From Nemertoderma westbladi (taxonomy: Eukaryota; Animalia; Xenacoelomorpha), in NCBI GenBank assembly GCA_032718475.1, contig JAUCBJ010001639.1, positions 28,672-92,671 of the forward strand: 64,000 bases of DNA, written 5' to 3'. A program made the position numbers and the translations under genes. The stretch's first letter is position 1. Each line of letters opens with the position of its first letter. Of the stretch, positions 10,858 to 62,421 are shown piece after piece. Under the pieces are notes generated by a model that saw nothing but the letters and a program-made list of their open reading frames with translations, was not told the origin of the DNA and made no database searches.

Positions 10858-12523
10858 GCATTAATGATTCTAATACAATTTCCCGTTTGATCTTATGAAA
10901 CGAGTTTTGAGTTTTGTCTTGTGGCGGGTCTTTGTGCCGCTTCCTTGATTTTAGGAAGTTTATTACTACATTTCTCCGCTTCCTTAGTCATACTCCGTGT
11001 TTGGCGAGGCTCGAATTTTATTTCATCTCGCTGATAATGTTGACCATAATCATCACTTTCCTCCCTGGCTATTTCAAGGAGACAGAGCCTCTGAATTGGT
11101 CGTTGTAACTCGCTCCCATTTATTGTCTTCACATTTACTGAGCGCACTAACCCATCTTGAGATGAGTTAATTTTAGTTACAACTACAGTCAGCCAATGTT
11201 GACGACTGACATTTTCATTTTCAAGGAGAACTAAATCTCCTAATTTGAGATTATCTTTTTTGGCAAACCATTTCTTCCTTATCATAATGGAGGGAAGATA
11301 AAATCTAATCCAGTTTTCCAAAAAAGTTGGGACAAGTACTGCATAACCTTCCAAGTACGTCAGGAAGTTAAATCACTCTCTTCAATTTCTGAGACAGGCA
11401 ATAATACAGCAGGTCTCAGAAACAGGAAGTGCGCAGGGGTAAGGACTTCAGATCCGAAGTCATGCGAGTCAGAGGTCGTGAGTTTAGTACTGCTTCGATT
11501 CGATTTCAACCAATAAAGTATTAAGGGTTATAAGGGTTTGATCAGTAAGATAAACCCTAACTGGTAGAACTTTATAAATAGCTGCTTTGATACTTTTAAT
11601 AAGGCGTTCAAAAGCTCCCCCACGCCAAGGTGCTTTAGGGGTGTTAAACCTCCACTCCAGATAATGAGACTTAACTGTCTCAATGATCTGAGTTTCATTC
11701 CAGTCTTCAATCTGTCTTTTTAATTCTGTTCCACTCGCAATAAAATTTCCTCCACAGTCAGATCTGATAACTGCGGGAGTGCCTCTTCTAGCAAAAAAGC
11801 GACGCAGACATAATATGAAACTATCCATTGTGGCATCATTTACATAGTCTAAATGTACAGCCCTGCAACTAAAGCAGGTAAAAATCACAGCCCAGCGTTT
11901 AACATAGCTACGGGCTTTTTTAACCATAAAAGGCCCCATCAAATCGCATCCAGTCTGACGGAAAGCAGGTTCAAAGGCAGCCAGCCAGCCTCTCTGGTGG
12001 CAAATTCCCTTGAAGTTGATTAACAGGTCTAGCATGGACTTTAAGACAAGTATGGCAGTTTGCTAGCATAGCTTGGACTGTTTTCCATGGATTGATGAAG
12101 TAATTCCGTAAGATATTCATAATATGATCGAAACCAGAATGGTATGTCATAATAATATGCACATCCAGGAACAGGTTTCTCATATTGTGAGAATGACTTA
12201 TTAGAAAAGGGAACTTAGAGTCTATACTGATAGGAGCATACAGTATGTTAACCTACCTCCTACTCTAAGAAAGCCATCTAGCATTACAGTAGAGTATTTA
12301 TCAGGAATAAATTCCACTTCGCTACTAAGTAAAGAACTATATTCCTTAGGATGTTGTTCCCTTTGAGTCAAACGAATCAATTGATTCTCTGTCTGAGCTG
12401 ATTCACTTTGAGTCAGATTAATGAACAAATCAGGATTAGATTTCTTATTAGGTGATTTTAAACCCAAATTTTTGTTATGAAGTTTATATAGGTGAAAATG
12501 ATATAATATTTTCCACCAAGTCA

Positions 12524-21016: not shown

Positions 21017-23520
21017 ATAATAATATAATAATAATAATAATAAATTATTTTTATTCAAAAACTCCGCAACAAGTTTTATAAGAAAAAAACCGCACAGAGG
21101 CAGCCTAACAGATAGATATCGTTATGGCTGATAATTATTGAATAAAGCGTCATTACCTAACTTTAATATATCTATATTTATTAATAATAATGTACTAAAT
21201 GTATCTATCTATATGATCTACTCTACACTACTTAGTACTGGGTAAGCACAATTAACATAATACTATCAATCATCAAGTTAACCAGCAGTCTCTGGTATTT
21301 TTGTAGTTTGTTTGCTATTTCGTTTAAGTTATTTCCTCACGGGCGTACATTTTGCTGAAATGGCTCCTAATTTTAGTTATAAATTCTTTGTATGACTTGA
21401 ACTCACGGATATTTTTATCTAAGGAATTCCACAGTCGGGTGCTGCTTACCATTACGCTGTTGTACCCAAAAAGTGTATTTGTTTTTGGAATTTTAATACA
21501 AGAAGTTCTCGTATTTATATTATCGTTCTTTATTCCATAGTTTTGTAGGAAAGGTAAGCTAAGATTTTTAAACGGTGTCGATAGATCGTAAAAGTATTTA
21601 TAATAGTATTTTAATGCATAGTAATTCCTAAGTGCTTGTAAATGTGGTAATTTTGCATGTGAACGTAGTTCTGTCCCTGTAGCGTCTCTAATTTTTTTGC
21701 AGTAAACGGTGCGTAATCCGTAATTTTGTATTTTATCTAGCTCGTATAGTATGTTCTTGTACCCATGTGTTTCGTGAAGTGGAGCGATAATTTCACAGCA
21801 GTAGTTATGTAATGGCAGAACAGTTGCTTTAAATACAGTAAGTTTTGTGCTTGTTGGCAATTGGCCCTTTATTAGTCTTAGACAGGATACTGCGTGGGTC
21901 ATTTTTTCTGTGATTGATTTAATTTGTGGTTTCCAATTTAGTTTGTTATCAATCAATACTCCTAAGTATTTGAATTGCGAACTTTGTTGTATTATTGTTT
22001 TTCCTAATTGTAGGTTAATTTCATTGATTTCAGTGGTTCTAGAATTAGGTGTTATTAAGATGAACTCGTTTTTTCCGGATTTACTTGCATTTTTAGAGTT
22101 AGAAATTGTCGTTCTATTTTTGTTATACGTTCCGCTAGTATTTTAGTGGCTGTTATCGGATCTGGCCCTGTAGCAAAGATAAGGGTATCGTCAGCGTATT
22201 GAATGATGTTAAGATTCTCAGATTCCGATATTTCATTGACGTATATGAGGAACATAAGTGGGCCTAGAAGCGTTCCTTGTGGAATTCCCCGTTCCGTCTG
22301 TTCCCAGCTAGAGTAGTCCCCATTTATTTTGACCCTTTGTTTACGATTGGTAAGGTAGTTGCGCATGAAAGTAACAGCAGTTGAGTGGAGTCCGATTTCT
22401 TTCAGTTTAAGGAGAAGTATACTGTGGTTCGGAGAGTCAAAAGCCTTACTTAAGTCAAGAGCTGCTACAGCAACATGGTTTCCTACGTCAAGTTTTGATC
22501 TCCAGTTCTCTGTTGCGTAAATTATAGCGTCCTTTGTAGAATATGATTTCCTAAATCCGAACTGTTTGGTTGGGAGTAGTTTATTTTTAGTTATATAATT
22601 TATTAATTGGATATAAATGACACGTTCATATATTTTTGCGAAATATGAAGAAGTTACTGATATTGGCCTATAATTATCTGCTTGTTCCTTGTCGCCTTTT
22701 TTGTATACTGGAGTTACATCTGCTAACTTAAGCCTACTGGGGAATTCTGATTTAGTTATTGATTGGTTAATTAAATAAGTCAAGACAAATACTATATAAG
22801 GTGCTATTAATTTTATTATTTTGGGTGGAACTTTTGAGGGACCCTGTGATTTATTTTCATTTAGTTTTGAAATTATATCACAAACTGCAATTGCATCAAT
22901 GTGTCTAAAACTGAAATTATTATTCTTAACTTTTCGATTCATACATGATTTATACTTAATGTCCTCAAGTCCAAGAAAGTTTCCCAAATTTAGGTATGTT
23001 TTATTGAACAATGTTGCAATTGCTGTTGGTTTACTTATTACTTTTTTAATTTGTTTGTCTCGTAAGAAGTGAATTTTACAGGTTGTGCTCTGTTTGTTCA
23101 GAATATTGTTTACTATTTTCCATTTCTTACGAGATGATTTTTCATTTGCGTATTTTGTTTTAATATATTTGTTTTTTGCAGCTCGATTCGCGGTGTTAAA
23201 TTTATTTCTATCAATTTTGAATATTAAAAAGTCCGAATCTAGTTTTGATCTGCGCCAGTTAACCAATGATTGCGATCTTTTATTTTGTAGTGTTTGCAGA
23301 TAATCGTCCCACCATGGTCGATTAGAGTTTATTTTATTATGGTTACTGGTATTTTTTATTAGTTTTCTTTTAGTCGGGGCATGCTTGTCTAGAATTTTTA
23401 CAAATTCATCTTCAAAATTATTAAACGCTGTATCGATATCCGCAAGTTGATAGACACCCGTCCAATCAATGTTTTGTATATCTGCCAGAAATTTTTTTTC
23501 CGAGAAACCATTAATTTTAA
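21017..23520 (-). mobile_element. 5'-truncated LINE (CR1/L2-group-like) with frameshifted RT
   Basis: ORFs 22055..23266 (NYRPIS, QFGFR, LDLSKAFD, GIPQGTLLGP, YADD) and 21324..21956 (thumb/C-terminus); AATAAA and (TTA)n tail at ~21017-21057. Confidence 0.9.
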
Positions 23521-23871
23521 TTACATGTTACAATCCGTATCGCTACCACTACGAAAAATAACTGACATAACATCATACAAGAATTAACAGACCCTTATAA
23601 GTTTAGTGGCGGTTTGTAACAAACTTAACCTCTTGGCATAATGATATTAACACTTTCGGTACCTAACTGGAAATTATTCAAATCCCCAAATGCCCAATTC
23701 TATTAATTATAAATTATATTTATTATACCATGGAAATGGTAAAATTGCCAGATCTAAAAAGTTCGCACAATAATTTAAATAAAATTATAAAAAGTTTGAC
23801 GTCCGAATATAATCCATCAGATTACGCCTTAGCAGCCCAACTACTTGTTGAGGCTCGCTCAACGTGTTGGC

Positions 23872-31005: not shown

Positions 31006-34000
31006 TTATTTTTTCAACCCTACCCTATGAGAGGGCTGAAACGACACCCCAATTGGCTTTTTGCATACAGTATTGTAGTTTTATAATTTATTTTGTATCG
31101 TTTCTGTACAGTATGTCCAGCATTATTGAGGCGGGCATAGCCACACTCTCGGTAAAGTTGTACGTAGGGCAGATTATTTACGTTTTACATTAGTACGGGG
31201 CAGTTTTCTAATATTGTAATTAATTATACTGCAGGTAATGATAATATACGACGCTTTTATTCGACATTGAAGAAGAAGTACATACTAAAAATGTTACATA
31301 CAGTAGGTATTAATTTATGCATTGCATGTAGTGAGTGGTCTTTAGAGCTAGCGTTTCCACACAAAACCAATATACGCATGAGTTGGATTGTCTCCAGTAT
31401 ATTTCAGAGCTGATTGTAAGAGTGCCGCAGCGAAACGCCAAATACCAGTCATAAGGAACAATCTCATAAAGGTTAAGCTCGCCATCTCGCTGGGTAATCA
31501 ATCGCCTGGATTATTGCTGATGAAGAGGCCATTTTATTTACACAAAACCAGAGTTAGCAGAAGAAAGTCCTGGTGTGGTAAATGTGGCTCAGTCGCAGGA
31601 TATCTTCTGTAGAGGCAAATATTGGCTTCCTATAGCATGAAGCAGGGTAAACAACTGCCAGCCAGAGAAGTTGCAGAGTCCATCGAGGTTATTAAAAGGT
31701 TAAGCTTAGATGCAAGTCGCTTTCAAGTCGGAGTCGGACTTTTGTGGAGGTGACCATAATGACCCGAAGAACCGTTCTTTGTCTAAAGTACTGTACAAAG
31801 CCGAGGTACAATACTATAGTTACAGTAAAAGAGTTAACAAACTCTTAGAGCGTGAAAGCAACCACCACGTCTACAGTAAATTTTACTACCTTTGTTTTAG
31901 AGATATTTACTGTCAGCTTGTTGCTTTTCAGTTACCTAAATAACCAGGTAAGTAAAATATAGGACATCTTTGCAATTAAGCTGCAATGATTTAGAGGTAA
32001 TCCTATGTGTTTTGATGTACAATACCTACCGGGACATTATATACATTGTTTGTGTGTATTGTTATTACTTTTTACATAATATATAAGTACAGTACATACA
32101 GTATACAGAATACTGTATATACAGTACAGTATCACCAAATAAACAGGATTACTTATTCTAAATTTTGTTTAATTCAGATAAAATTAATTGGAAACTGCGC
32201 CTAAACCATCATTACTTCATAAAGTTAATTTGAATAGTGCGCCTAAACCATCATTCCTTCATAAAAGTAATTGGAATAGTGCGCATAAACCCTCACTTCA
32301 TAAAATTAATTGGAATAGTGCGCCTAAACCATCATTACTTCATCAAATTTATTGGAATAGTGCGCATAAACCCTCACTTCATAAAATTAATTGGAGTAGT
32401 GCGCGTAAACCCTCACTTCATAAAGTTAATTGAATAGTGCGCGTGAACCCTCACTTCATAAAATTAATTGGAATAGTGTGCCTAAACCATCATTACTTCA
32501 TAAAATTAATTGGAATTGTGCGCATAAACCCTCACTTCATAAAATTAATTGGAATAGTGCGCATAAACCCTCACTTCATAAAATTAATTGGAATAGTGCG
32601 CCTAAACCATCATTACTTCATCAAATTTATTGGAATAGTGCGCATAAACCCTCACTTCATAAAATTAATTGGAGTAGTGCGTGTAAACCCTCACTTCATA
32701 AAATTATTTGGAATAGTGCGCGTAAAACCCATTTCATAAAATTAATTGGAATAGGGCGCGTAAACCCTCACTTCATAAAATTTATTGGAATAGTGTGCAT
32801 AAACCCTCATTTCATAAAGTTAATTTGAATAGTGCGCATAAACCCTCATTTTATTAAATTAATTTAAATAGTGCGCCTAAACCATCATTACTTCATAAAA
32901 TTAATTGGAATAGTGCGCGTAAACCCTCACTTCATAAAATTAATTGGAATAGTGTACCTAAACCATCATTACATCATAAAATTAAATGGAAAAGTGCGCG
33001 GAAACCCTCACTTCATAAAATCCATTGGAAGAGTGCACGTAAACCCCCAATTCATAAAATTAAATGGAATAGTATGTGTAAACCCTTACTTCATAAAATT
33101 AATTTGAATAGTGCGCCTAAACCATCATTACTCATAAAATTAATTGGAATAGTGCAAGTAAACCCTCACTTCATAAAATTTATTGGAATAGTGCGCGTAA
33201 ACGCTCACTTCATAAAGTTAATTTGAATAGTGCGCGTAAACGCTCACTTCAGAAAATTAATTGGAATAGTATGCCTAAACCATCATTATTTCATAAAATT
33301 AATGGGAAAAGTGCCCATAAACCCACTTCAAAATATTAATTGGAATAGTGCGAGTAAACCCTCACTTCATAAAATTTATTGGAATAGTGCGTGTAAACCC
33401 ATTTAATAAAATTAACTGGAATAGGGCGCGTAAACCCTCACTTCATAAAGTTAATTTGAATAGTGCGCATAAACCCCCACTTCATAAAATTAATTGGAAT
33501 AGTGCGCATAAACCCTCACTTCATAAAATTAATTGGAATAGTGCGCGTAAACCCTCACTTCATAAAATGAATTGGAATAGTGCGCCTAAACCATCATTAC
33601 TTAATTAAATTAATGGGAAAAGTGCGCGTAAACCCACTTTATAAAATTAATTGGAATAATGTGCATAAAGCCTCATTTCATAAAATTAATTGGAATAGTG
33701 CGCGTAAACCCTCACTTCATAAAATTGATTCGAATAGTGCGCCTAGACCATCATTACTTCATAAAATTAATTGGAAGAGTGCACGTAAACCCCCACTTCA
33801 TAAAATTAATTGGAATACTGCGCGTAAACCCTCACGTCATAAAATTAATTGGAATTGTGCGCGTAAACCTTCACTTCATAAAATTGACTCGAATAGTGCG
33901 CCTAAACCATCATTACTTCATAAAATTAATTGGAATAGTGCACATAAACCCTCACTTCATAAAATTAATTGGAATAGTGCGCGTAAACCCTCACTTCATA

Positions 34001-37000
34001 AAATTAATTGGAATAGTGCGCGTAAACCCTCACTTCATAAAGTTAATTTGAATAGTGCGCGTAAACCCTCACTTCATAAAATGAATTGGAATATTGCGCC
34101 TAAACCATCATTACTTAATTAAATTAATGGGAAAAGTGCGCGTAAACCCACTTTATAAAATTAATTGGAATAATGTGCGTAAACCCTCATTTCATAAAAT
34201 TAATTGGAATAGTGCGCGTAAACCCTCACTTCATAAAATTGATTCGAATAGTGCGCCTAGACCATCATTACTTCATAAAATTAATTGGAATAGTGCACGT
34301 AAACCCCCACTTCATAAAATTAATTGGAATACTGCGCGTAAACCCTCACTTCATAAAATTAATTGGAATTGTGCGCGTAAACCCTCACTTCATAAAATTG
34401 ATTTGAATAGTGCGCCTAAACCATCATGACTTCATAAAATAAATTGGAATAGTGCGCGTAAACCCTCATTTCATAAAATTAATAGGAATAGTGCGCGTAA
34501 ACCCTCACTTCATAAAATTGATTCGAATAGTGCGCCTAGACCATCATTACTTCATAAAATTAATTGGAATAGTGCACGTAAACCCCCACTTCATAAAATT
34601 AATTGGAATACTGCGCGTAAACCCTCACTTCATAAAATTAATTGGAATTGTGCGCGTAAACCCTCACTTCATAAAATTGATTTGAATAGTGCGCCTAAAC
34701 CATCATGACTTCATAAAATAAATTGGAATAATGCGCATAAACCCTCACTTCATAAAATTAATTGGAATAGTACGCATAAACCCTCACTTCATAAAATTGA
34801 TTCGAATAGTGCAAATAAACCACCATTACTTCATTAAAATAATGGAAAAAGTGTGCGTATACCCACTTTATAAAATTAATTGGAATAGTGCACGTAAACC
34901 CTCACTTCATAAAATTAATTGGAATAGTGCGCGTAAACCCCCACTTCATAAAATTAATTGGAATACTGCACGTAAACCCTCACTTCATAAAATTAATTGG
35001 AATTGTGCGCCTAAAGCCCCACTTCATAAAATTAATTGGAATAGTGCGCGTAAACCCTCACTTCATAAAATTAATGGGAAAAGTGTGCGTAAACCACTTC
35101 ATAAAATTAATTGGAATAGTGTGCGCAAACCCTCTCTTCATAAAATTAATTGGAATAGTGCGCATAAACCCTCACTTCATAAAATTAATTGGAATAGTGC
35201 GCGTAAATCCTTACTTCATAAAATTAATTGGAATAGTGCGCGTAAACCCTCACTTCATAAAATTAATTTGAATAATGCGCCTAAACCATCATTACTTCAT
35301 AAAAGTAATTGGAATAATGCGCGTAAACCCTTACTTCATAAAATTAATTGGAATAGTGCTCGTAAACCCCCACTTCATAAAATTAATTGGAATTGTGCGC
35401 GTAAACCCTCACTTCATAAAATTGATTTGAATAGTGCGCCTAAACCATCATGACTTCATAAAATAAATTGGAATAATGCGCATAAACCCTCACTTCATAA
35501 AATTAATTGGAATAGTACGCATAAACCCTCACTTCATAAAATTGATTCGAATAGTGCAAATAAACCACCATTACTTCATTAAAATAATGGAAAAAGTGTG
35601 CGTATACCCACTTTATAAAATTAATTGGAATAGTGCACGTAAACCCTCACTTCATAAAATTAATTGGAATAGTGCGCGTAAACCCCCACTTCATAAAATT
35701 AATTGGAATACTGCACGTAAACCCTCACTTCATAAAATTAATTGGAATTGTGCGCCTAAAGCCCCACTTCATAAAATTAATTGGAATAGTGCGCGTAAAC
35801 CCTCACTTCATAAAATTAATGGGAAAAGTGTGCGTAAACCACTTCATAAAATTAATTGGAATAGTGTGCGCAAACCCTCTCTTCATAAAATTAATTGGAA
35901 TAGTGCGCATAAACCCTCACTTCATAAAATTAATTGGAATAGTGCGCGTAAATCCTTACTTCATAAAATTAATTGGAATAGTGCGCGTAAACCCTCACTT
36001 CATAAAATTAATTTGAATAATGCGCCTAAACCATCATTACTTCATAAAAGTAATTGGAATAATGCGCGTAAACCCTTACTTCATAAAATTAATTGGAATA
36101 GTGCTCGTAAACCCCCACTTCATAAAATTAATTGGAATAGTGCGCATAAACCCCCACTTCATAAAATTAATTGGAATACTGCACGTAAACCCTCACTTCA
36201 TAAAATTAATTGGAATTGTGCGCCTAAAGCCCCACTTCATAAAATTAATTGGAATAGTGCGCGTAAACCCTCACTTCATAAAATTAATGGGAAAAGTGTG
36301 CGTAAACCACTTCATAAAATTAATTGGAATAGTGTGCGCAAACCCACTCTTCATAAAATTAATTGGAATAGTGCGCATAAACCCTCACTTCATAAAATTA
36401 ATTGGAATAGTGCGCGTAAATCCTTACTTCATAAAATTAATTGGAATAGTGCGCGTAAACCCTCACTTCATAAAATTAATTTGAATAATGCGCCTAAACC
36501 ATCATTACTTCATAAAAGTAATTGGAATAATGCGCGTAAACCCTTACTTCATAAAATTAATTGGAATAGTGCTCGTAAACCCCCACTTCATAAAATTAAT
36601 TGGAATAGTGCGCGTAAACCCTCACTTCATAAAGTTAATTGAATAGTGCGCGTGAACCCTCACTTCATAAAATTAATTGGAATAGTGTGCCTAAACCATC
36701 ATTACTTCATAAAATTAATTGGAATAGGGCGCGTAAACCCTCACTTCATAAAGTTAATTTGAATAGTGCGCATAAATCCCCACTTCATAAAATTAATTGG
36801 AATAGTTCGCATAAACCCTCACTTCATAAAATTAATTGGAATAGTGCGCGTAAACCCTCACTTCATAAAGTTAATTTGAATAGTGCGCGTAAACCCTCAC
36901 TTCATAAAATGAATTGGAATAGTGCGCCTAAACCATCATTACTTAATTAAATTAATGGGAAAAGTGCGCGTAAACCCACTTTATAAAATTAATTGGAATA

Positions 37001-37067
37001 ATGTGCGTAAACCCTCATTTCATAAAATTAATTGGAATAGTGCGCGTAAACCCTCACTTCATAAAAT

Positions 37068-37526
37068 GTGGCTGGCCACGAGAAAAGGGACCTTTTGGTA
37101 CCGGAGGTCGATTTGGAGTTATTAGGCCTATGAGATGCAGAATTTTACAGAAATTTTAACAAAAAAAACGGTGTCTCAATATCTATTTCCAAAAAAAGTT
37201 ATAGCGATTTATGTGAAGGTGATTCGGGTAGCTCTTTTCCTACCTACCCGTACTAGTACCTTTTATTAAAGTTCTAAATTCACACATGAAAACACTAAAA
37301 CAGTGTTATATACAACACTGCAACATCTTATATTGCTTCCTGTAATTAGTTCTTTCCTAGGTATCTTGAATATCAGAACCAATTTGAATTTCCCGCATCG
37401 TTTTATACATTTCTAACTTGATAATCCAATTAAATTTGTTCAAAAATAGAGGGAAACTTTAAACGCGATTATCTCAGAATCAGGTTTTGCGACATAAGGT
37501 CCCTCCCTTTTCTCGTGGCCAGCCAC
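37068..37526. mobile_element. MITE, Sola1-like, inserted in satellite (copy 1)
   Basis: TIR gtggctggccacgagaaaaggga / tcccttttctcgtggccagccac; 4-bp TSD AAAT (AWWT as in Sola1). Confidence 0.85.
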
Positions 37527-39613
37527 AAATTGATTCGAATAGTGCGCCTAAACCATCATTACTTCATAAAATTAATTGGAATAGTGCACGTAAACCCCCA
37601 CTTCATAAAATTAATTGGAATACTGCGCGTAAACCCTCACTTCATAAAATTAATTGGAATTGTGGGCGTAAACCTTCACTTCATAAAATTGACACAAATA
37701 GTGCGCCTAAACCATCATTACTTCATAAAATTAATTGGAATAGTGCACGTAAACCCTCACTTCATAAAATTAATTGGAATAGTGCGCGTAAACCCTCACT
37801 TCATAAAATTGATTCGAATAGTGCGCCTAAACCATCATTACTTCATAAAATTAATTGGAATAGTGCACGTAAACCCCCACTTCATAAAATTAATTGGAAT
37901 ACTGCGCGTAAACCCTCACTTCATAAAATTAATTGGAATTGTGCGCGTAAACCCTCACTTCATAAAATTGATTTGAATAGTGCGCCTAAACCATCATGAC
38001 TTCATAAAATAAATTGGAATAATGCGCATAAACCCTCACTTCATAAAATTAATTGGAATAGTACGCATAAACCCTCACTTCATAAAATTGATTCGAATAG
38101 TGCAAATAAACCACCATTACTTCATTAAAATAATGGGAAAAGTGTGCGTATACCCACTTCATAAAATTAATTGGAATAGTGCACGTAAACCCTCACTTCA
38201 TAAAATTAATTGGAATAGTGCGCGTAAACCCCCACTTCATAAAATTAATTGGAATACTGCACGTAAACCCTCACTTCATAAAATTAATTGGAATTGTGCG
38301 CCTAAAGCCCCACTTCATAAAATTAATTGGAATAGTGCGCGTAAACCCTCACTTCATAAAATTAATGGGAAAAGTGTGCGTAAACCACTTCATAAAATTA
38401 ATTGGAATAGTGTGCGCAAACCCTCTCTTCATAAAATTAATTGGAATAGTGCGCATAAACCCTCACTTCATAAAATTAATTGGAATAGTGCGCGTAAATC
38501 CTTACTTCATAAAATTAATTGGAATAGTGCGCGTAAACCCTCACTTCATAAAATTAATTTGAATAATGCGCCTAAACCATCATTACTTCATAAAAGTAAT
38601 TGGAATAATGCGCGTAAACCCTTACTTCATAAAATTAATTGGAATAGTGCTCGTAAACCCCCACTTCATAAAATTAATTGGAATAGTGCGCGTAAACCCC
38701 CACTTCATAAAATTAATTGGAATACTGCACGTAAACCCTCACTTCATAAAATTAATTGGAATTGTGCGCCTAAAGCCCCACTTCATAAAATTAATTGGAA
38801 TAGTGCGCGTAAACCCTCACTTCATAAAATTAATGGGAAAAGTGTGCGTAAACCACTTCATAAAATTAATTGGAATAGTGTGCGCAAACCCACTCTTCAT
38901 AAAATTAATTGGAATAGTGCGCATAAACCCTCACTTCATAAAATTAATTGGAATAGTGCGCGTAAATCCTTACTTCATAAAATTAATTGGAATAGTGCGC
39001 GTAAACCCTCACTTCATAAAATTAATTTGAATAATGCGCCTAAACCATCATTACTTCATAAAAGTAATTGGAATAATGCGCGTAAACCCTTACTTCATAA
39101 AATTAATTGGAATAGTGCTCGTAAACCCCCACTTCATAAAATTAATTGGAATAGTGCGCGTAAACCCTCACTTCATAAAGTTAATTGAATAGTGCGCGTG
39201 AACCCTCACTTCATAAAATTAATTGGAATAGTGTGCCTAAACCATCATTACTTCATAAAATTAATTGGAATAGGGCGCGTAAACCCTCACTTCATAAAGT
39301 TAATTTGAATAGTGCGCATAAACCCCCACTTCATAAAATTAATTGGAATAGTGCGCATAAACCCTCACTTCATAAAATTAATTGGAATAGTGCGCGTAAA
39401 CCCTCACTTCATAAAGTTAATTTGAATAGTGCGCGTAAACCCTCACTTCATAAAATGAATTGGAATAGTGCGCCTAAACCATCATTACTTAATTAAATTA
39501 ATGGGAAAAGTGCGCGTAAACCCACTTTATAAAATTAATTGGAATAATGTGCGTAAACCCTCATTTCATAAAATTAATTGGAATAGTGCGCGTAAACCCT
39601 CACTTCATAAAAT

Positions 39614-40073
39614 GTGGCTGGCCACGAGAAAAGGGACCTTTTGGTACCGGAGGTCGATTTGGAGTTATTAGGCCTATGAGATGCAGAATTTTACAGAAAT
39701 TTTAACAAAAAAAACGGTGTCTCAATATCTATTTCCAAAAAAAAGTTATAGCGATTTATGTGAAGGTGATTCGGGTAGCTCTTTTCCTACCTACCCGTAC
39801 TAGTACCTTTTATTAAAGTTCTAAATTCACACATGAAAACACTAAAACAGTGTTATATACAACACTGCAACATCTTATATTGCTTCCTGTAATTAGTTCT
39901 TTCCTAGGTATCTTGAATATCAGAACCAATTTGAATTTCCCGCATCGTTTTATACATTTCTAACTTGATAATCCAATTAAATTTGTTCAAAAATAGAGGG
40001 AAACTTTAAACGCGATTATCTCAGAATCAGGTTTTGCGACATAAGGTCCCTCCCTTTTCTCGTGGCCAGCCAC
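39614..40073. mobile_element. MITE, Sola1-like (copy 2, produced by tandem duplication)
   Basis: Identical to copy 1 except for one A in a homopolymer; same flanking satellite variants 2546 bp away. Confidence 0.85.
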
Positions 40074-41420
40074 AAATTGATTCGAATAGTGCGCCTAAAC
40101 CATCATTACTTCATAAAATTAATTGGAATAGTGCACGTAAACCCCCACTTCATAAAATTAATTGGAATACTGCGCGTAAACCCTCACTTCATAAAATTAA
40201 TTGGAATTGTGGGCGTAAACCTTCACTTCATAAAATTGACACAAATAGTGCGCCTAAACCATCATTACTTCATAAAATTAATTGGAATAGTGCACGTAAA
40301 CCCTCACTTCATAAAATTAATTGGAATAGTGCGCGTAAACCCTCACTTCATAAAATTGATTCGAATAGTGCGCCTAAACCATCATTACTTCATAAAATTT
40401 ATTGGAATAGTGCACGTAAACCCCCACTTCATAAAATTAATTGGAATACTGCGCGTAAACCCTCACTTCATAAAATTAATTGGAATTGTGCGCGTAAACC
40501 CTCACTTCATAAAATTGATTTGAATAGTGAACCTAAACCATCATGACTTCATAAAATTAATTGGAATAGTGCGCGTAAACCCTCACTTCATAAAATTAAT
40601 TGGAATAGTGCGCCTAAACCATCATTACTTCATTAAATTAATGGGAAAAGTGCACGTAAACCCACTTCATAAAATTAATTGGAATAATGCGCATAAACCC
40701 TCACTTCATAAAATTAATTGGAATAGTACGCATAAACCCTCACTTCATAAAATTGATTCGAATAGTGCAAATAAACCATCATTACTTCATTAAATTAATG
40801 GGAAAAGTGTGCGTAAACCACTTCATAAAATTAATTGGAATAGTGTGCGCAAACCCTCTCTTCATAAAATTAATTGGAATAGTACGCGTAAACCCTCACT
40901 TCATAAAATTAATTGGAATAGTGCGCGTAAATCCTTACTTCATAAAATTAATTGGAATAGTGCGCGTAAACCCTCACTTCATAAAATTAATTTGAATAAT
41001 GCGCCTAAACCATCATTACTTCATAAAAGTAATTGGAATAATGCGCGTAAACCCTTACTTCATAAAATTAATTGGAATAGTGCTCGTAAACCCCCACTTC
41101 ATAAAATTAATTGGAATAGTGCGCGTAAACCCTCACTTCATAAAGTTAATTGAATAGTGCGCGTGAACCCTCACTTCATAAAATTAATTGGAATAGTGTG
41201 CCTAAACCATCATTACTTCATAAAATTAATTGGAATTGTGCGCATAAACCCTCACTTCATAAAATTAATTGGAATAGTGCGCGTAAACCCCCACTTCATA
41301 AAATTAATTGGAATAGTGCACATAAACCCTCACTTCAAAAAATCAATTGGAATAGTGCACGTAAACCCCCACTTCATAAAATTAATTGGAATAGTGCGCG
41401 TAAACCCTCACTTCATAAAA

Positions 41421-41627
41421 TTAATTTGAATAGTGCGGGTAAACCCTCACTTCACAGATGTTCATTTCTTGACGATTGTCGCTGAAGATAACAACATATC
41501 TTCCTCTCTTTCCGTTGCAGTTAATTTGAGTTAGCCAATTTCCATTTGGAACAGTTCCGCACAAAGGTTCACCATTCCATCTTAGGCCATTCAGCAAAGC
41601 TGATGAAACGCTGTTTACAACATGAAC
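41421..41627 (-). CDS. F-type lectin (fucolectin) terminal coding exon
   Basis: Acceptor tttatttaAG|GTT; VHVVNSVSSALLNGLRWNGEPLCGTVPNGNWLTQINCNGKRGRYVVIFSDNRQEMNICEVRVYPHYSN*, containing the F-type C..GRYV.I...ICEV.VY motif; phase 0 matches the upstream exon. Confidence 0.88.
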   Translation of the reverse strand, partial: VHVVNSVSSALLNGLRWNGEPLCGTVPNGNWLTQINCNGKRGRYVVIFSDNRQEMNICEVRVYPHYSN

Positions 41628-42039
41628 CTTAAATAAATAATTTTAAAATAATTACTACCTTTATTCAGTACGACTCATAGATAAATATAATTATTATAAA
41701 CTACTGTAAATCGCATTTTATCAACCAGGTAAATGAGATTTGGTTGGTCAAGAGTTAATTGTTTTGAGTTTAATAGTGATTTTTCTGATGCGGGTATGTG
41801 AACCTGTGTGGGTGGGAAGTTGGGTGGATGAGGATACAGAAAGTTGGGAATGTGGGAAGGTGGGTGGGAATGTGTAACGACTGTACATTTGAATATTTAA
41901 AGAACATTGAAAACGTAGTTAAAATAAAATGCATTATTGGACAGACTCAATACTAGTCTTGGGTTGGATCCATAATGAGAAGATGCACTATCCCATATTC
42001 GTAGTAGTAGAGTAGATGAGATAAGAGTGACCTCCTAAT

Positions 42040-43340: not shown

Positions 43341-44873
43341 CCCTATTAGTACCGGGCTATAAAATGTTGTACAAAAAAATCCCCCTCTAAAATCTACAAA
43401 TATTTACGAAAACGTCTGATTTTTTGTTTGTACGTAGGTATGACTTGTCTGGATCCGACCGAAAAAAAAATTTCGAAAAAATGTACTGGGGTGGTTATAT
43501 TGCAGCACCAAAATTACAAGTAGTGCACAATTTTCACAAAATTTGAAAGTTACATTTTCGGCTAATTATTTTTCAATACAGGTTTTCTGGGGCGCAAAAT
43601 ACATTGGAAAATATTTAAAAATGATATGATTACTATAACTGGCTGTTTAGTCCTCTCTGCGTAGGAAAAAAATGAAAAAAACAAGTAACCAGCACTTTTC
43701 AGTTAGAACACAGAATTTTTAATTCACTTATACGATGCTATAAATTCACATTTTCAGGTTTTCGAGGGCCCTGATTCTAATGGAATACATTTCTAATATG
43801 CCAGATCATTGCTACTTGTATTTTTCGGCGTAATTTGGCAAATTTTGGTGCTAGCACCAAATTTCGTACCCATCACCAAAAGTACAAGTTTGCGATGTCC
43901 AGTGCTGTTTTTATTGATTCCATCGGATTTAGGACCGTCATAAACCCGTTTAACGCAAGAAACAAGGTGATACTATCTACTGATCAATTTGCATATTTTC
44001 CAAAATTTGGTGCTGGCACAACAATTTTCACCCACCGGCAAAAAAAATACAAGTTTGAGAACTCTTATGAAATTTTTGCTGATTCCATTGAATTCAGAAC
44101 CACCACAAACCCGTATAACGCAAGAAACAAGGTGACACAATCAATTGATTTATTTGATGGTTTTCAAAATTTGGTGCTAGCACCACATTTTGCACCCACA
44201 TCCGAAAAATACAGGTTTGAGATGTCTAGTTCGATAATTATATATTCATTTGAATTCAGAACAGCCATAAACCTCTAAAACGCGAGAAATAAATTGTCAC
44301 AAGCAATTTTATCTATTGAACGGATTTTCAAAATTTCGTGCTAGCACCAAAATTTGCACTCAGCACCGAAAAATACAAGTTTGATACGCTTGGTGCAACT
44401 CGTATATATTTTATCGAATCCAGAACCCCAAAAAACCCCAATTGCGTAAAAAACAAGTTTCAAACAATCAATTTACAAAATTGACATATTTCAAAATTTG
44501 GTGCTGGCACCAAACTTTGGCACCCACCAAAAAAACAAGTTCGAAATTTCTAAATCAATTTATATGAATTCCATCCAATTTCTAACACCAAAAAACCGGT
44601 GTAAATCAAAAAAAGAGATGTTACAATTCATATTTAATGAAATGTAATTTTCAAAAAACGTCTCAAAAAAAGTGCCAAAAGTAGGGTTAAAAAATGGTGC
44701 TATAACTCGAAAAGTACCCAATATTTTTGAAAACGGTTTTCACTACTAGGAAGACAATAGATTTTTAGGAAAAGTCATAAAATTTCAGATTCCCAACTGC
44801 GTTTGTTTCAGAATTATAATAAAAAAACCAAGGATGGGGTCATATTGACCCCCCCCCCCCGGGTTTAATAGGG
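43341..44873. mobile_element. piggyBac-type MITE with internal ~160-bp tandem repeats
   Basis: TTAA|CCCTATTAGTACCGGG ... CCCGGGTTTAATAGGG|TTAA; about 5 internal units with palindrome tttggtgctagcaccaaa (43830-44660). Confidence 0.85.
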
Positions 44874-53436: not shown

Positions 53437-55694
53437 CTAGAAAGTCATTTCCTAAAGGAAATGCAACCACGAAGCTAAGGAAAATTAAACAAAGGGCCAC
53501 AATTTGGTTTGTTGCTTAGTCTAGTTTAGTAGCATTTGCCAATAAATAACTTCTATTCCCATGGAAACTAGAATTCTCTGGAACTGTTGGTTTTACCTTT
53601 GAAAAAAGATTCAGTCCAGCTTGTGGTTCAGATAACACATATACCGAGTTTCAGAAATTATTGTAGTTTATGCCCAAATTACCGATTTTCTATCAAAATG
53701 CATCTGTTTGCAGTGGTTGTCATGGAAACTGAAAAATAGAATAATGTAATTCGGATGCAGAATAAGTCATATAGTGGGGGTAGGTCTTGGTCCCAAGTCA
53801 TAATACTATTAACTTGTGTTTCAAATTATCATTTTAGAAATTTTAACATCTGTTTAGTCTTGTTGCTATGGTAATTGGATTGTGTAATTAACCTCGAATG
53901 GATTGTATATGGACCTTACAGATGAGTTGCAAAACCCCAAATTTATATTTATTACATTATTTTGCTATAAATAGAGTATTGAATTTAGACTTGAATGATA
54001 TAGACTTTAATAAACTCCAGTTACCATGGTAACAAGATATTTCTGGAATGTTTTCAGTTTCACTAAAAGTTCCAACTAAGGGTCCAGATAACACATTCCC
54101 AGTTTCGTAAAATTTTATCGCGAAGTCTATGTCCAAATGAGTTATTTTTGTATAAAAACATCTGTTTTCAGCGGTTGTCATGGTAACTGCAAAATTAAAC
54201 AATGAAATTCGGACGCAGAATAAGTCATATAGTGGGGGTAGGGGTTGGTCCCAAGACATAGCACCTTAACCTTAGGCTTCAAATTAACATTTTATAAATT
54301 TTAACATCTGTTTAGCCCGGTTTCCAAGGTAACTGGATTTTCTATTCAACCTCAATCGGCTCAACACAATATAAAAACGTTAATTGGATGCAGAATAAGT
54401 GATATAGTAGGGGTAGCGGTTGGTCCCAAGTCGTAATATGTTAATGTTATGGCTTAAGTAACTATTTTATAAATTTGAACATCTGTTTATCCTGGTTGCC
54501 TGTTAACTGAATTTTCTAATTGACCTCAATAAGCGCAACTATTGTCCTTACAATTGAGTTGAAAAATAAATATATAAATATATATCTATTATGGTTGTTG
54601 TACAAATAGAGTTAATAATATAGACTTTAATGTAATAGATTTTAATAAATTGCAGTTACCATGGTAACTAGATATTTCTAGAAGTTTTGAGTTTTTCAAA
54701 AAGTTCCAAATAGGAGTCCAGATAACACATACCCAGTTTCAGAGAATGTTATCGTTTAGTCTATCTAAATGAACAATTTTTGTGTCAAATCATCTGTTTT
54801 TAGCGGTTGCCATGGAAACTGAGAAATAGAACAACGTAATTCGGATGCAGAATAAGTTATATAGAGGGGGTAGGGCTTGGTCCCATCTCATAATACCTCT
54901 TACTTTTGCTTAAAATTATCATTTTATACATTTTAACGTCTGTTTAGCCTGGTTGCCATGGTAACATGATTTTTAATTTGTCTTAATCTGCTCGACTATG
55001 GCCCTTATAGTTGACTTGAGAAATCCCAAGTTTATTTATATTACAGTTTTGCTACAAACAGAGTTAATGAATATAGACTTGAATGATATAGATTTTAATA
55101 AACTCCAGTTACCAAGGTAACTAGATATTTCTGGAATGGTTTGAGTTTCACTAAAAGTTCCAACTAGTGGTCCAGATAACACATATCCAGTTTCGTAAAA
55201 TTTTATTGCGAAGTCTAGGTCCAAATGAGTAATTGTTGTATAAAAACATCTGTTTTCAGCGGTTGTCATGGTAACGGCAAAATAGAACAATCAAATTAGG
55301 ACGTAGAATAAGTTATATAATGGGGGTAGGGGTTGTGTCCAAGTCATAACACACCTTAGGCTTCAAATTAACATTTTATAAATTTTAACATCTGTTTAGC
55401 CCGGTTGCCAAGGTAACTGGATTTTCTATTTAGTCTCAATCGGCTCTGCTATGGACCTTATAGTTGAATTGAGAATTTTTCCCAGACATGTGACCTATCC
55501 CACACGATGCGCCTTGATGAGTAGTATATATATGCAAAATTTCAGGGTACAGTACTTTTAAAGGCTAGTTTTTTCCGGAATAAAAAAACACTAAATCTGC
55601 CTCACACAAGTAAAATAGCCCACTTTGAATAGACCATCTCAGCTAAGGAAAATTTTTCTTAGCGAAAGTAGTTGATTTTCCTTAGCTTCGTGGA
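53437..55694 (-). mobile_element. Non-autonomous Helitron family A, copy 4 (expanded internal modules)
   Basis: A|TCCACG ... hairpin CTAG|T; 2.26 kb versus 0.95-1.27 kb for the other copies, owing to extra ~465-bp modules. Confidence 0.87.
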
Positions 55695-57439: not shown

Positions 57440-59648
57440 TTTTTTAAGTAGATATTAAATACATAGGCCTAATGTATGCCTAATGCAAAAAATTAGTGTG
57501 CTGTGCCGGCTTATCAACAAAATTGCACCGCCACAACTCCCTATCACCCATGACATTTGCTAGATCATCCGCATCTTCAAGGCCAGTGTCCTATAAGATG
57601 CGTCTGAAGAAAGTCATGGGCTGTCCACCATGCTTATTCACTCCATGAGGCTGCCAAAGTACAAGATTATGCACTGGCTGGTCATCACGGCGAAAGCCAT
57701 GTCCTGCAAAGCGGAGGCAATTTTGTTCTAGTGTCAAGCTTGGGGGAACCAATGAGACACCTCCAATGTTATATAGTGTCTGGTTGGAGATGTGTGCATT
57801 GTACTTGACACAGTGAACCCGGCGTAGCATTCTTGTGAATGTGCCATCCAGAGATTTGGTGTCTTCAGCAGTTAGAGCCCAGCATGGACTCCCATAGAGG
57901 AATACTGGAACTACTGCTGCTCTAAATAATCGGACCTTAAGTGTCCGATTAATTCTCAGTGACTTCCAAATCCTGGAAAGCCTATTCAAGGCTGCCCATG
58001 CCTTTCCATTACGTATTCGAAGGTCCTCACCTGACTTCCGGATCCATGATCCCAGGTAACAGAAGTCATCCACATGCTCAAGCATACCATCTTTTGAGCT
58101 TATGCTCATCCGATCAGAGACTTGCTGAGGACTTTGAAAATTAACTCTCAAAATTTTGGTTTTTCTGGAGTTAATAAAAAGACCAACACTAGAAGCAGCA
58201 TGTTCTAATGAGCTGAGGAGCCGTTGGGCTCCCTCTTGTGATTCTGAGAGTACTCCTAAGTCATCAGCAAAGTCTAGATCAGTTAGGTAGTTGGCAGGAT
58301 TTCCTCGACTTCTGGAGCCAGTAGGTGGAGTTATCATCACCGCATCATCATTATGATGATCTAAGGACATGCGTAGAACATAGTCAACCACAATAATGAA
58401 CAAGAATGGTGCAAGTGTGTCTCCCTGGAGGACGCCCCATAACACTTCAAATGGTTCTGTGTCACCGTCAACAGTAGACACAAAGGTTGTCGAACCATCG
58501 TATACTGATCTGATTGCTGCAATAATTTCATCATGAATCCCATATAATGAACGTATGCTAAACATATGAGCGAGAGACTGAATCAAAGGCCTTGAAGAAG
58601 TCAACAAAGATAATAGATCAATGAGTTTCCCCGAAAAGAACCATAGAGTGTTAGGTTGCCCTTCTTGGGAACTGGCACCAACTTATTTGTTTTCATTTCT
58701 TGTGGGACTCTTGTTGTCAGTACATGTCTACTATGATGGGATAGATGAGCTTTAAACACTCAGGTATTTTAAAGACCTCAGGGGGAACACCATCTACTCC
58801 ACTGGCACGATTTGTCTTAATGCTCTTTGCAGCAGCCTTCACTTCTTCAAAGGAGATATCACCAATGGGAATATCTGGGAGTACAGACTCAGACACTTTT
58901 ACTTCTATAAAGTTATCAGGCAATACCCTGTCATTATTGAGGAGCTTTTCAAAGTGGGCCTTCCAACCATTGAGGCGATTGGCTGGTGATTCAGCCTTAA
59001 CCTTGGTGGTTGGTTGGCTTTTTCGACCAGCAAGCAAGTTGATCGATCCTGGATGATTGCCTGCTGTCGTCAGCATCATTGATGGCATCAACCTGTTGGT
59101 TTATTAGCTCCTGTAAATTAACAGAGTACTGCCTGTTCAGGGACCTAGATGCAGCCTTAACTGCATTCTTGGCCGCTGTAGTCTGTTTGATTCGGGACTC
59201 TTTCTGCGCCTTGTAGAGGTCATTTCGGCACTTCTGAATTTTGTTGTCAGTCCAGGGGGCCCGTTTCCTGTTTCGAGGGTATACAGGAACTGTTTCTGCA
59301 GCTGCTAACTTAACTGCCTCTGTGAAGGCAGTATAGCCCTCACAGTGATCTGCCGCCTCAGAGGCAAGAACCTCACCTGTTGCTCAGCTGTAGTGTGACG
59401 CTGGATCTCACACTTGGCTGTTGCAACAGAGAGGACCAGTCATGCCGCGGCAAGGCAGATTTCGTTGTTCTGCTAGCACGCAGACTAAGTCTTACCTTGG
59501 CCACAATAAGGCGGTGATCACTGGAGAAGGGTCGTAGTGTAAATGCATTACAGTCTTGTATAGAGATCCTGTATTTCCTACGAAACAGGATATGGTCTAT
59601 CTGGGGCTTGTGACCACTGGGTCCACTATGAGTCCATAGCTTTCCAGA
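57440..59648 (-). mobile_element. 5'-truncated RTE-clade LINE
   Basis: APE end IDHIL..SDHRLIVA; ASGVDGVPPE; GVLQGDTLAPFLF, LDFADD, FCYLGS; ORF 57591..58607; RT N-terminal part replaced or deleted near 58610-58716. Confidence 0.88.
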
Positions 59649-59714
59649 GACGGGAATGTGGGAAGGTGGACGGGAATGTCAAAAGGTGGGATAATGTGGG
59701 AATGCCCTCCATTG

Positions 59715-60395
59715 GTAGATTACAACAGCATTTATTGCTTTGGTTAGAAAAGCCTTACTCTGTAACCTGCTGCTCCTTTAGCTCAATTGTTTGGTAACAA
59801 CGTCGTTTAATGTTTTTGATAGAAAAACCCGCCCATGTAACCTGCTCCTTTGCCTCAATTGCTAGGTAACAACATTGTTTATTATTTTGGTTAGAATAGC
59901 CCGCCTCTATAACCTGCTCCTTTAACACATTGGTAGATAACAACAACGTTTAGTGTTTTGGTTAGAATAGCATTATCCCGTACTCTGCTCCTTTCGCTGA
60001 ATTGTTGGGTAACAACATCGTTTATTGTTTTGGATAGAAAAACCCTCCCCTGTAACCTGTTCTTTCTCTCAATTGGTAGGTAACAAAAATGTAACTTGTT
60101 TTGGTCAGAATAGCCCGCCTCTGTAACCTGCTCCTTTTCATCAATTGATAGCCCAACACTCTAACCCGCTCCTTTCCGTCAATTGGTAGGTAAAAATTTA
60201 GTTTATTGTTTGGGTTAGAAGCGTCCTCCTCCCTAACCTTCTCCTATCCCTCAAATGATAAGCAACAACATATTTTATTGTTTTGATTAGAAAACCTTTT
60301 AGTAACAAAATTTAGTAACCTGCTCCTTTCCCTCAATTGCCAGGAAACAACAACCATCCTTTCCTCAATTGGTAAGTACCGGTAACAACAACAAC
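59715..60395. repeat. ~70-bp degenerate tandem repeat
   Basis: Units ttgttttggttagaa..ccgcctctgtaacctgctccttt..caattggtaggtaacaac, about 9 copies. Confidence 0.85.
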
Positions 60396-60736: not shown

Positions 60737-60975
60737 CCGTGAACCAACAATACGGTGGGCACAGCAATCCTGGCGATTGAAGATTTGCACTAAACCAATA
60801 GTTAGGTCGTCATACCCAATATCAACCCACCACCATTCCTGCGGTAAAGTGGGGCGATCTCGAGTGTGGAAACAAGAACCTTTACGATAATTTGAGTTGG
60901 TATGGCCATCCACCCCTCGCGAAGCTGGAGTATGGTAGCTACTTATGCCTGTGGGTCTCAAATAGGCTAAGTTTC
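60737..60975 (-). CDS. F-type lectin (fucolectin) exon, N-terminal half of domain
   Basis: Acceptor tccAG| and donor CGG|GTAAGT; NLAYLRPTGISS..ASRGVDG..SCFHT..WWWVDIG..IFNRQDCCAHR carries the fucose-binding H...RxDxxxxR motif. Upstream exon(s) not identified. Confidence 0.92.
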
Positions 60976-61126: not shown

Positions 61127-61797
61127 TTGGACCCCTTGGACCAATTGTCACCTTGTACCCTCACCAGAGTGGACCCCTTTGTCACCAGAGTGAACCCCGT
61201 TGTCACAGTGGACCCCTTTGTCACCAGAGTGGACCCATTTTTAACAGTGGACTCCTTTATCACAGTGGACCCCTTTGTCACCAGAGTGAACCCCTTTGTC
61301 ACCAGAGTGGGACCCTTTGTGACCAGAGTGGACCCCTTTTTTACAGTGGACCCCTTTAACACAGTGGACCCCTTTGTCACTAGAGTGGACCCCTTTGTCA
61401 CCAGAGTGGACCCCTTTTACACAGTGGACCACTTTGTCACCAGAGTGGACCCCTTTTTCACCAGAGTGGACCCCTTTTTCTCAGTGGACCCCTTTATCAC
61501 AGTGGACCCCGTTGACACCAGAGTGGATCCCTTTGTCACCAGAGTGGACCCCTTTGTCACCAGAGTGGACCCATTTGTCACAGTGGATCCCTTTATCACA
61601 GCGGAGCCCTTTGTCACTAGAGTGGACCCCTTTGTCACCTGAGTGGTCCCCTTTTTACAGTGGACCACTTTGTCACCAGAGTGGACCCAATTGTCACAGA
61701 GGACCCTTTGTCACCAGAGTTTACTCCTTTGTTACCAGAGTGGACCCCTTTGTCACCAGAGTGGAACCCCTTGTCAAAGTGGACCCCTTTTTCACAG
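61127..61797. repeat. 21/18-bp minisatellite agtggacccctttgtcacc(ag)
   Basis: Seen directly; intronic relative to the lectin gene. Confidence 0.95.
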
Positions 61798-61814: not shown

Positions 61815-62353
61815 TGTTAGCTTATTCAATCCCGCTAACACCCCATAAAGTTATGAGCCGATGAGCAATATTGGGAGCCACGAGATTGGGTAATTAACCA
61901 ACTCGTGCCATCCCAATAAGAGTGGGAAGGAAGCACACAATAGAGGGTCAGGGGCCAAACCCCCTAACCCAGAGAGAACAGGTGGAGTGAACGGGAACAC
62001 TCCACGGGGCGCCAACAAGGGTATCAACCAATCAGAGGGGGGCAAGGCATCGATTAGGTAGTAATTAGGCCAACCGTGTAATATAATCAGTAACCTATTA
62101 ATCAGTAATTCAGTTATCTCAGTGCAGTAGTGCTAGTATAGGTTAGTTAGTTTAGATAGGGGAGCACGGGACTTTAGTTACCGTATCCCGCCTTCCATAT
62201 ATTATACTATCATCAGATCATATCTATATCTTATACCAATTATATACAGCGAACATCAGAACTCATTTACCGTTTCCATTTACTCTTTACACACGGCGGG
62301 GACGCGTAAGCTAAACACCGGATAAACCGGGATCCCTCCTGGATCCCGTCACA
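61815..62353 (+). mobile_element. Putative 5' LTR
   Basis: TGT...ACA bounds, CCAAT near 62028, TATA-like element near 62080, immediately upstream of a Gag-like ORF; no TGG-type PBS seen; left boundary uncertain. Confidence 0.45.
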
Positions 62354-62421
62354 GTAACTAAATCAGCTGCCGCCCTAGACAAACTCAATAGCCACTAGCC
62401 ACCGAAATCTGCAGAAGAGAG

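What the first reader, a model, noticed from the sequence alone, without database searches (positions are those of the whole stretch)
32160..41627. 9.3-kb satellite born from the last codons and stop of a fucolectin gene
Seen: the lectin terminal exon reads ...ICEVRVYPHYSN* and runs directly into the array, whose minus-strand 39-bp unit translates FYEVRVYAHYSN*, i.e. the conserved CEVxVY end of the F-type domain plus TAA repeated about 200 times. The first satellite unit is itself coding. The far flank (ttttatctgaATTAAA, ~32167-32183) looks like the original 3' UTR/polyA signal, and atctg/tgaa microhomology with the exon (atctgtgaa) could have seeded slippage. Inference: a host lectin gene gave rise to a satellite. 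Variant units (EVGVY; stop-less ...SNQ units) could act as interchangeable C-termini through unequal exchange or gene conversion with the coding unit.
Basis: partly seen in the sequence, partly recalled or inferred. Interest (0 to 1): 0.85.

Follow-up and report, generated by a model that had tools for sequence, protein, structure and literature searches.

The report
Giant minisatellite from lectin stop codon
The last ten codons and stop signal of an animal fucose-binding-type lectin gene stand in 212 tandem copies (9.3 kb) behind the gene, while a sister copy of the gene has 7 and four other relatives have 1, so the repeat likely grew in place from the gene's own end and is likely a tolerated by-product, not a store of alternative protein endings.

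Summary
Observation confirmed. The last exon of an F-type lectin gene (41421-41627, minus) runs into 211 further copies of a 39-bp unit: 10 codons, TAA and 5 nt of 3' flank. All 179 genome matches of the unit junction lie here (174) or in a sister gene copy, C2178 (5), which has 7 units between the same flanks. Four paralogs have one unit, so the direction is gene to repeat. A spliced contig of the sister copy confirms the exon junction and carries about 100 nt of array past the stop. The C-terminus-library idea is not supported: unit variants show no coding constraint (7 synonymous of 35; 21% expected), and the coding unit's private Pro codon is in 0 of 211 units. Some exchange did occur: one C2178 unit holds a 33-nt exact paralog tract. 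It works like amphioxus 'mirage' minisatellites but spans a stop codon, not a splice site. The scan noted many splice-edge arrays elsewhere in this genome (one partly re-checked) and stop-codon duplications in other genomes, but not this locus.

The parts
60737..60975 (-). N-terminal exon of the F-type lectin domain (H37...R68-Q-D-C-C-A-H-R75; VDGH)
   Evidence: phmmer to FBP32 E 8e-13, eel lectin 1k12 E 5e-9; AG/GT ends seen; same order and strand as the last exon on 8 of the 8 closest contigs
41421..41627 (-). Last coding exon (C-terminal half of the domain, ends in TAA)
   Evidence: Translation; a profile of 17 such exons hits FBP32 (E 6e-12) and 1k12; spliced contigs of the sister copy
41421..41454 (-). 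Coding unit 0: the repeated part (Glu codon to stop)
   Evidence: 2 of 34 mismatches to the commonest unit; its CCG codon is in 0 of 211 other units
32182..41420 (-). 211 non-coding units (39-nt R/G type, 42-nt M type, 36-38-nt deletion types); block duplications of 12, 19 and 55 units
39614..40073 (.). MITE inserted in the array; terminal inverted repeats, 4-bp ATTT target duplication (AWWT, Sola1-like)
   Evidence: 40 best-scored places in the genome, 221 candidates; AWWT hallmark in PMC3845634 passages
37068..37526 (.). Second copy of the same MITE, made by a 2.55-kb block duplication of the array
   Evidence: 463 of 464 identical with the same flanks; blocks differ by 9 mismatches and 3 gaps in 2.56 kb
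40398..40403 (-). First AATAAA created by mutation inside the array, 1,018 nt after the stop (use not shown)
32130..32181 (-). Original 3' flank, homologous to the paralogs' post-stop sequence; ATTAAA at 32168-32173
   Evidence: alignment; the wider flank 31700-32176 matches full-length only C2178 among 40 scored places

Best explanation
The last ten codons, stop and five flanking bases of an F-type lectin gene stand in 212 tandem copies that likely arose in place from one short duplication, were likely tolerated because the first copy still ends the protein, and likely grew by ordinary minisatellite turnover with no coding role. Shown: unit anatomy; confinement to two sister loci; the 1/7/212 series in one subfamily; splicing and partial 3' UTR inclusion in the 7-unit copy; nested block duplications, one of which copied a MITE; neutral variation of units; paralog-type sequence inside the arrays; a mosaic paralog exon. 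Inferred: birth by slippage or unequal exchange near a short TGAA match; a short diverse array in the common ancestor of C1639 and C2178; 30-fold growth by unequal crossover or conversion; occasional conversion among array, coding end and paralogs; and a survival filter (only duplications that straddle the end of coding sequence leave the protein intact) that would also explain this genome's splice-edge arrays.
For: 179 matches = 174 here + 5 in C2178, control pattern 0. 4 of 4 closest paralogs have one unit followed by a flank homologous to the array's far flank, and CEVxV aligns to eel lectin 146-150, so the sequence is older than the repeat. C2178 has 7 units of the same classes and the same type of terminal unit. 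Distinct single-base alleles in the ten codons: 7 synonymous, 28 non-synonymous, against 0.21 expected, p = 1. The middle is homogenised (7 of 130 units unique) and the far end is not (29 of 46), the boundary exclusion described for mirages (PMC3087553 passages). A 639-nt contig of run X4 joins the C2178 upstream exon, the last exon and about 100 nt of array. A 49-bp donor-spanning array starts at a CstF-77-family exon end in the same genome.
Against: No 5-10-bp flanking direct repeat marks the junction; exact microhomology is 0-2 nt, so the birth mechanism is not shown. The survival filter is untested: 0 of 44 other loci examined (42 lectin-exon loci, two of them the upstream exons of the array genes, and 2 controls) had an array straddling an exon edge, and I measured no genome-wide rate. 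'Neutral' is not shown for the gene: 6 of 7 amino-acid differences from C2178 are derived on the long-array copy (Fisher p 0.18, codon asymmetry p 0.065). The splice was seen for the sister copy, not for the window's copy. Whether C2178 is an allele or a recent paralog is open.
Confidence: 0.75

Rival explanations
1. Same origin, but the array now matters to the gene: as a 1-9 kb repetitive 3' UTR or a heterochromatin seed it lowers expression of this copy, which is decaying or diverging.
For: The sister transcript contains array units. The distal hexamer is ATTAAA here against AATAAA in C2178, 9,248 nt from the stop. 6 of 7 amino-acid differences are derived here, among them Asn to His in the calcium motif.
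Against: The asymmetry is not significant. Both exons are open with intact splice sites and the basic triad. New AATAAA hexamers in the array (first at +1,018) could end the transcript early. No expression level was measurable.
Confidence: 0.2
2. Arrays are seeded by a process aimed at transcript boundaries (breaks or RNA-templated repair coupled to splicing or 3' processing), not merely filtered by selection.
For: Many exon-edge arrays were noted in this genome (unchecked AI notes; one partly re-checked). In the paralogs an AATAAA lies 10 nt after the stop, so the unit lies near a possible RNA end. The mechanism of mirages is called unclear in PMC3087553.
Against: The unit stops 5 nt after TAA and leaves out the hexamer. 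A stop codon has no DNA-level processing signal, and a filter predicts this case without extra assumptions. This is one locus only.
Confidence: 0.2
3. The array is a maintained library of alternative C-termini that are converted into the coding unit.
For: Coding-unit states occur in the array (the TCA Ser codon in 21 of 211 units). A C2178 unit holds a 33-nt exact copy of the paralogs' coding end, against 10 nt for its own coding unit. The C4648 exon is a mosaic: 0 differences to C1639 over nt 4-132, 0 to C8458 over nt 133-204.
Against: No constraint on unit codons. Many units carry internal stops or frameshifts. The private CCG is in 0 of 211 units. The two coding units differ at 1 repeated base, and the four paralogs end identically. 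The repeated codons are the last strand, starting at the calcium-binding Glu, not the sugar-binding loops.
Confidence: 0.07
4. The length is an assembly artefact of a short array.
For: Near-identical 2.55-kb blocks; no contig spans the array.
Against: 83 distinct units in nested blocks with real substitutions. Summed contig depth on consensus-type units is about 40-fold (X1) and about 110-fold (X2) that of the adjacent intron (not a copy number, and one run may be the source sample).
Confidence: 0.04
5. A pre-existing satellite was captured and supplied the gene's end (exaptation).
For: None found.
Against: Confined to the two sister loci. The same codons end single-unit paralogs and align to solved F-type lectins.
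Confidence: 0.02

Closest known systems
Amphioxus 'mirage' minisatellites (Adh3, globins BflGb6 and BflGb9, troponin C, PGBD5). Seen: passages of PMC3087553 and PMC3902484.
   Same: The first unit is part of the working gene. Copies run into non-coding DNA, the protein end is unaffected, length varies between copies (6 vs 3 units for BflGb6), the interior is homogenised and the boundaries are excluded.
   Different: Here the unit spans a stop codon, not an exon-intron boundary, so copies fall in the 3' UTR and are partly transcribed into mRNA. It has 212 units against the 2-7 in the passages read, and single-unit paralogs give the direction.
Minisatellite birth models: Taylor and Breden 2000; Haber and Louis 1998. 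Seen only as summarised in PMC3389668 passages; PMC1461170 was not held.
   Same: A 10-100-bp unit born from unique sequence; a short imperfect match (TGAA) near the junction; an altered terminal unit.
   Different: No 5-10-bp flanking direct repeat is evident; the seed is a host protein-coding end.
Satellites seeded by rDNA spacers or transposable elements (review PMC5615363, passages)
   Same: A tandem array derived from a recognisable functional sequence; higher-order blocks.
   Different: The seed is a host gene end, and the repeat has not spread beyond two sister loci.
F-type lectins: eel AAA (PDB 1k12), striped bass FBP32 (3cqo); review PMC5712786, passages
   Same: Basic triad, vicinal cysteines, conserved disulfide cysteines, CEVxV end.
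   Different: His-Arg spacing of 30 against the review's 24; His instead of Asn/Asp/Ser in the calcium motif of this copy; a weakly thrombospondin-like upstream exon in the subfamily (E 0.22).

Membership tests
F-type lectin | Sequence similarity to solved F-type domains | tested here: met
   Upstream exon E 8e-13 to FBP32; last-exon profile E 6e-12. Pfam gave only a sub-cutoff PF22633 hit and nothing relevant for the last exon alone.
F-type lectin | Fucose motif H...RxDx4(R/K) | tested here: met
   H37, R68-Q-D70-C-C-A-H-R75; 30 residues between H and R against 24 in the review, aligned with gaps.
F-type lectin | Calcium motif h2DGx with x = N, D or S | tested here: inconclusive
   VDGH in this copy, VDGN in C2178 and the four other relatives compared.
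F-type lectin | Jellyroll fold and fucose binding | not tested
   No fold of the two-exon protein was run; binding needs the bench.
Mirage minisatellite | Unit spans an exon-intron boundary | tested here: not met
   The unit spans the stop codon. No splice out of a unit was seen.
Mirage minisatellite | One unit is part of the authentic transcript, and splicing is normal | tested here: met
   Spliced contigs for the sister copy; inferred for the window's copy.
Mirage minisatellite | Length differs between haplotypes | tested here: inconclusive
   7 vs 212 units, but C2178 may be an allele or a paralog.
Mirage minisatellite | Concerted evolution inside, boundaries excluded | tested here: met
   Unique units: 9 of 35 near, 7 of 130 middle, 29 of 46 far.
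Satellite DNA family (multi-locus) | Arrays at unlinked loci | tested here: not met
   179 of 179 matches accounted for by two sister loci, at up to 2 mismatches in a 27-nt pattern.

The most novel reading that the evidence does not exclude
This genome seeds giant arrays at any end of coding sequence, stop codons included, and this lectin subfamily shows all stages (1, 7, 212 units). The array acts as a conversion hub that swaps the last strand among paralogs and, once long, silences or frees the gene that carries it.
Probability: 0.15. Interest if true: 0.7.

Novelty: new variant of a known kind. Interest (0 to 1): 0.42.

Why it matters
The birth of minisatellites is rarely seen with its ancestral single-copy state beside it; here 1, 7 and 212 units coexist in one subfamily of one genome. 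A stop-codon version of a mirage is what a survival filter predicts and a splice-targeted mechanism does not, so it suggests a direct genome-wide test of why exon-edge repeats exist, a mechanism called unclear in PMC3087553. It is one locus, and no function is shown.

Tried and rejected
The look-up of sequencing runs listed no holder on record as RNA; X4 and X5 behave as RNA only by their spliced contigs. No contig of X4 or X5 carried the window-specific exon bases. Contigs show presence, not absence, and X5's sample may lack this copy, so this says nothing about silencing. X4 and X5 stop about 100 and 160 nt past the stop, short of the distal hexamer, at different places, which gives no hint on the 3' end. 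A paralog-type X5 contig runs 255 or more nt past its stop, so the nearby hexamer is not shown to be used. Allele or paralog remains unresolved. The two share 88-98% identical collinear blocks with large indels and no shared unique DNA beyond 1.0 kb downstream. RPL18A and eIF6 were each found once, but other lectin pairs are 95-98% alike. Both types occur in runs of two samples. The window holds no other recognisable host gene to anchor synteny (11 of 26 ORFs scanned). The protein search among 141-2000-aa proteins found 0 of 30 candidates (weak). The self-BLAST printed nothing; blocks come. The unit parse mis-split the second MITE; counts are. Long plus-strand ORFs over the array are stop-free antisense frames of the repeat and were rejected as genes. 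The ancestral state of the unit (R/Y or M/F) cannot be polarised because the two outgroup genes differ. Paper searches listed no report of a large array spanning a host stop codon; I judged most by listing only, and read passages of PMC5615363 and PMC12783039, which had none. Subscription journals and supplements were not covered. One search found nothing.
Full report
Observation. TRF finds a period-39 array at 32178-41454. On the minus strand it begins inside an exon with an AG acceptor at 41628 that reads VHVV...NICEVRVYPHYSN*. A clean parse gives 212 units including the coding one, 83 of them distinct, and 166 of the 211 non-coding units keep a stop at the homologous place. The repeated part runs from the Glu codon through TAA plus 5 nt of flank; the Cys is not included. 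The coding unit differs from the commonest unit at 2 of 34 positions. Two copies of a 460-bp inverted-repeat element interrupt the array.

The gene. The exon at 60737-60975 matches FBP32 (E 8e-13) and the eel lectin 1k12. A profile of 17 last exons matches the C-terminal halves of both, with CEVxV on eel residues 146-150. The review PMC5712786 (passages) names Glu147 as a calcium ligand and gives the motifs. The basic triad is present; the calcium motif has His here and Asn in the relatives. The family is large: 70 last-exon and 64 upstream-exon matches, both lower bounds. The 8 closest contigs carry both exons in order. In run X4 a 639-nt contig joins the last exon to the exact end of the C2178 upstream exon and continues about 100 nt into the array; run X5 shows the same junction and no cover of the unique intron start. 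The splice is therefore shown for the sister copy and inferred for the window's copy. A further weakly thrombospondin-like exon (E 0.22) lies upstream in C2178 and three paralogs. The window's contig ends before it; the likely counterpart is on C8352 (inferred).

Direction and confinement. A 27-nt junction pattern with up to 2 mismatches has 179 matches in 408 Mb and the control 0. My recount gives 174 in the window and 5 in C2178. C2178 carries the same gene with 7 units between the same flanks: distal flank 921 identities, 59 mismatches, 40 gaps. C4648, C8458, C2354 and C2463 end in a single unit followed by a flank homologous to the array's far flank for about 45 nt. The two array genes are sisters on the upstream-exon tree (97/96). 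The repeat therefore came from the gene, once, before C1639 and C2178 separated. Exaptation of a prior satellite is excluded.

Growth. C2178's units belong to the same classes as the window's, and the terminal units are of one type, so the ancestor was short and already diverse. The window's array grew by blocks of 12, 19 and 55 units. The 55-unit block (2.55 kb, 99.5% identical) copied the MITE with it. The MITE has AWWT target duplications at 6 of 6 places looked at, two of them the array's own, a Sola1 hallmark per PMC3845634 (passages). The middle is homogenised and the far end old. Contig depth on consensus units is far above the intron in two samples; this is no copy number, but it speaks against a pure artefact.

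Birth. Exact microhomology at the junction is 0-2 nt. Slippage at an imperfect short match is plausible and not shown.

A library of C-termini? Among distinct 39-mers, 7 of 35 single-base alleles in the ten codons are synonymous, against 21% of possible changes (p = 1), and the coding unit's CCG is in 0 of 211 units. So the units are not kept as coding stock. Exchange has still occurred. The coding TCA state is in 21 units, the paralogs' Met codon context in 39 and their Phe context in 16. One C2178 unit has a 33-nt exact match to the paralogs' end, and the C4648 exon is a clean mosaic. Whether the paralog-type units are relics or imports cannot be told, since the two outgroup genes differ at the Arg/Met codon.

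Effect on the gene. Six of 7 amino-acid differences from C2178 are derived on the long-array copy and none on C2178 (one unpolarised), which is not significant. The distal hexamer has drifted to ATTAAA, while AATAAA has arisen inside the array from +1,018. This leaves an effect on expression open.

Context. Earlier scan notes (unchecked) list at least eight splice-edge arrays in this genome and pointed me to the amphioxus mirages. I confirmed one in part: a 49-bp unit covering the end of a Suf/CstF-77-family exon and its GT donor, continuous over the 11.5 kb I fetched next to the exon and present again near the far end of the intron. In 46 loci of my own, only the two array-bearing last exons had a repeat straddling an exon edge. 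PMC3087553 and PMC3902484 (passages) describe mirages of 2-7 units that do not disturb splicing and have an unclear origin. This locus fails the defining splice-boundary test but works the same way, with the stop codon as the edge. Notes from other genomes (unchecked) describe stop-spanning repeats in a bacterium and from LINE tails. My paper searches listed no host-gene case of this size; coverage is limited.

Verdict. A real, locus-born giant minisatellite and a new variant of a known kind. It is best read as a tolerated by-product (0.75), valuable mainly as a 1/7/212 series and as a test case for why exon-edge repeats exist. Interest 0.42.

Noticed in passing
window 39614-40073 and 37068-37526: MITE family with AWWT target duplications (Sola1-like) and 93-98% identical copies across the genome (221 candidates, 40 scored; a longer form also exists).
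   Followed up: partly
L022 (C4648 last exon): Mosaic exon: nt 4-132 identical to the array genes, nt 133-204 identical to C8458; gene conversion among lectin paralogs.
   Followed up: yes
L068:5417-5572 (C2178), also C8352, C4648, C8606, C2463, C2354: Cys/Trp-rich exon upstream of the F-type domain, weakly like a thrombospondin type-1 repeat (E 0.22, no Pfam hit); six close copies, matching the six close lectin genes.
   Followed up: partly
window 60737-60975 and 41421-41627: Six of seven amino-acid differences from C2178 are derived on this copy, several adding basic residues; relaxed or positive selection is possible, not significant.
   Followed up: partly
window 61161-61795: A 21-bp array about 190 bp upstream of the acceptor, shared with C2178, where it is about twice as long (91327-92721).
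   Followed up: no
window 59706-60260, 43839-44529, 54459-55475: Other intronic tandem repeats (72, 164 and 453 bp) that also match elsewhere, likely transposon-borne.
   Followed up: no
window 10893-12062, 22055-23527, 57591-58682, 62300-64000: Retroelement remnants: integrase plus DUF5641, two reverse-transcriptase ORFs, and a purine-rich, possibly gag-like stretch at the contig end inside the lectin's upstream intron.
   Followed up: partly
L092 (C3354), L093 (C1821): RPL18A and eIF6 each lie in one long open frame (178 and 265 aa), apparently with few or no introns, in a genome whose lectin introns reach 36 kb.
   Followed up: no
   Followed up: partly
C3912, C5570, C7639, C8125, C6120: Contigs with several F-type exon pairs in tandem, probably multi-domain lectins or gene clusters.
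   Followed up: no
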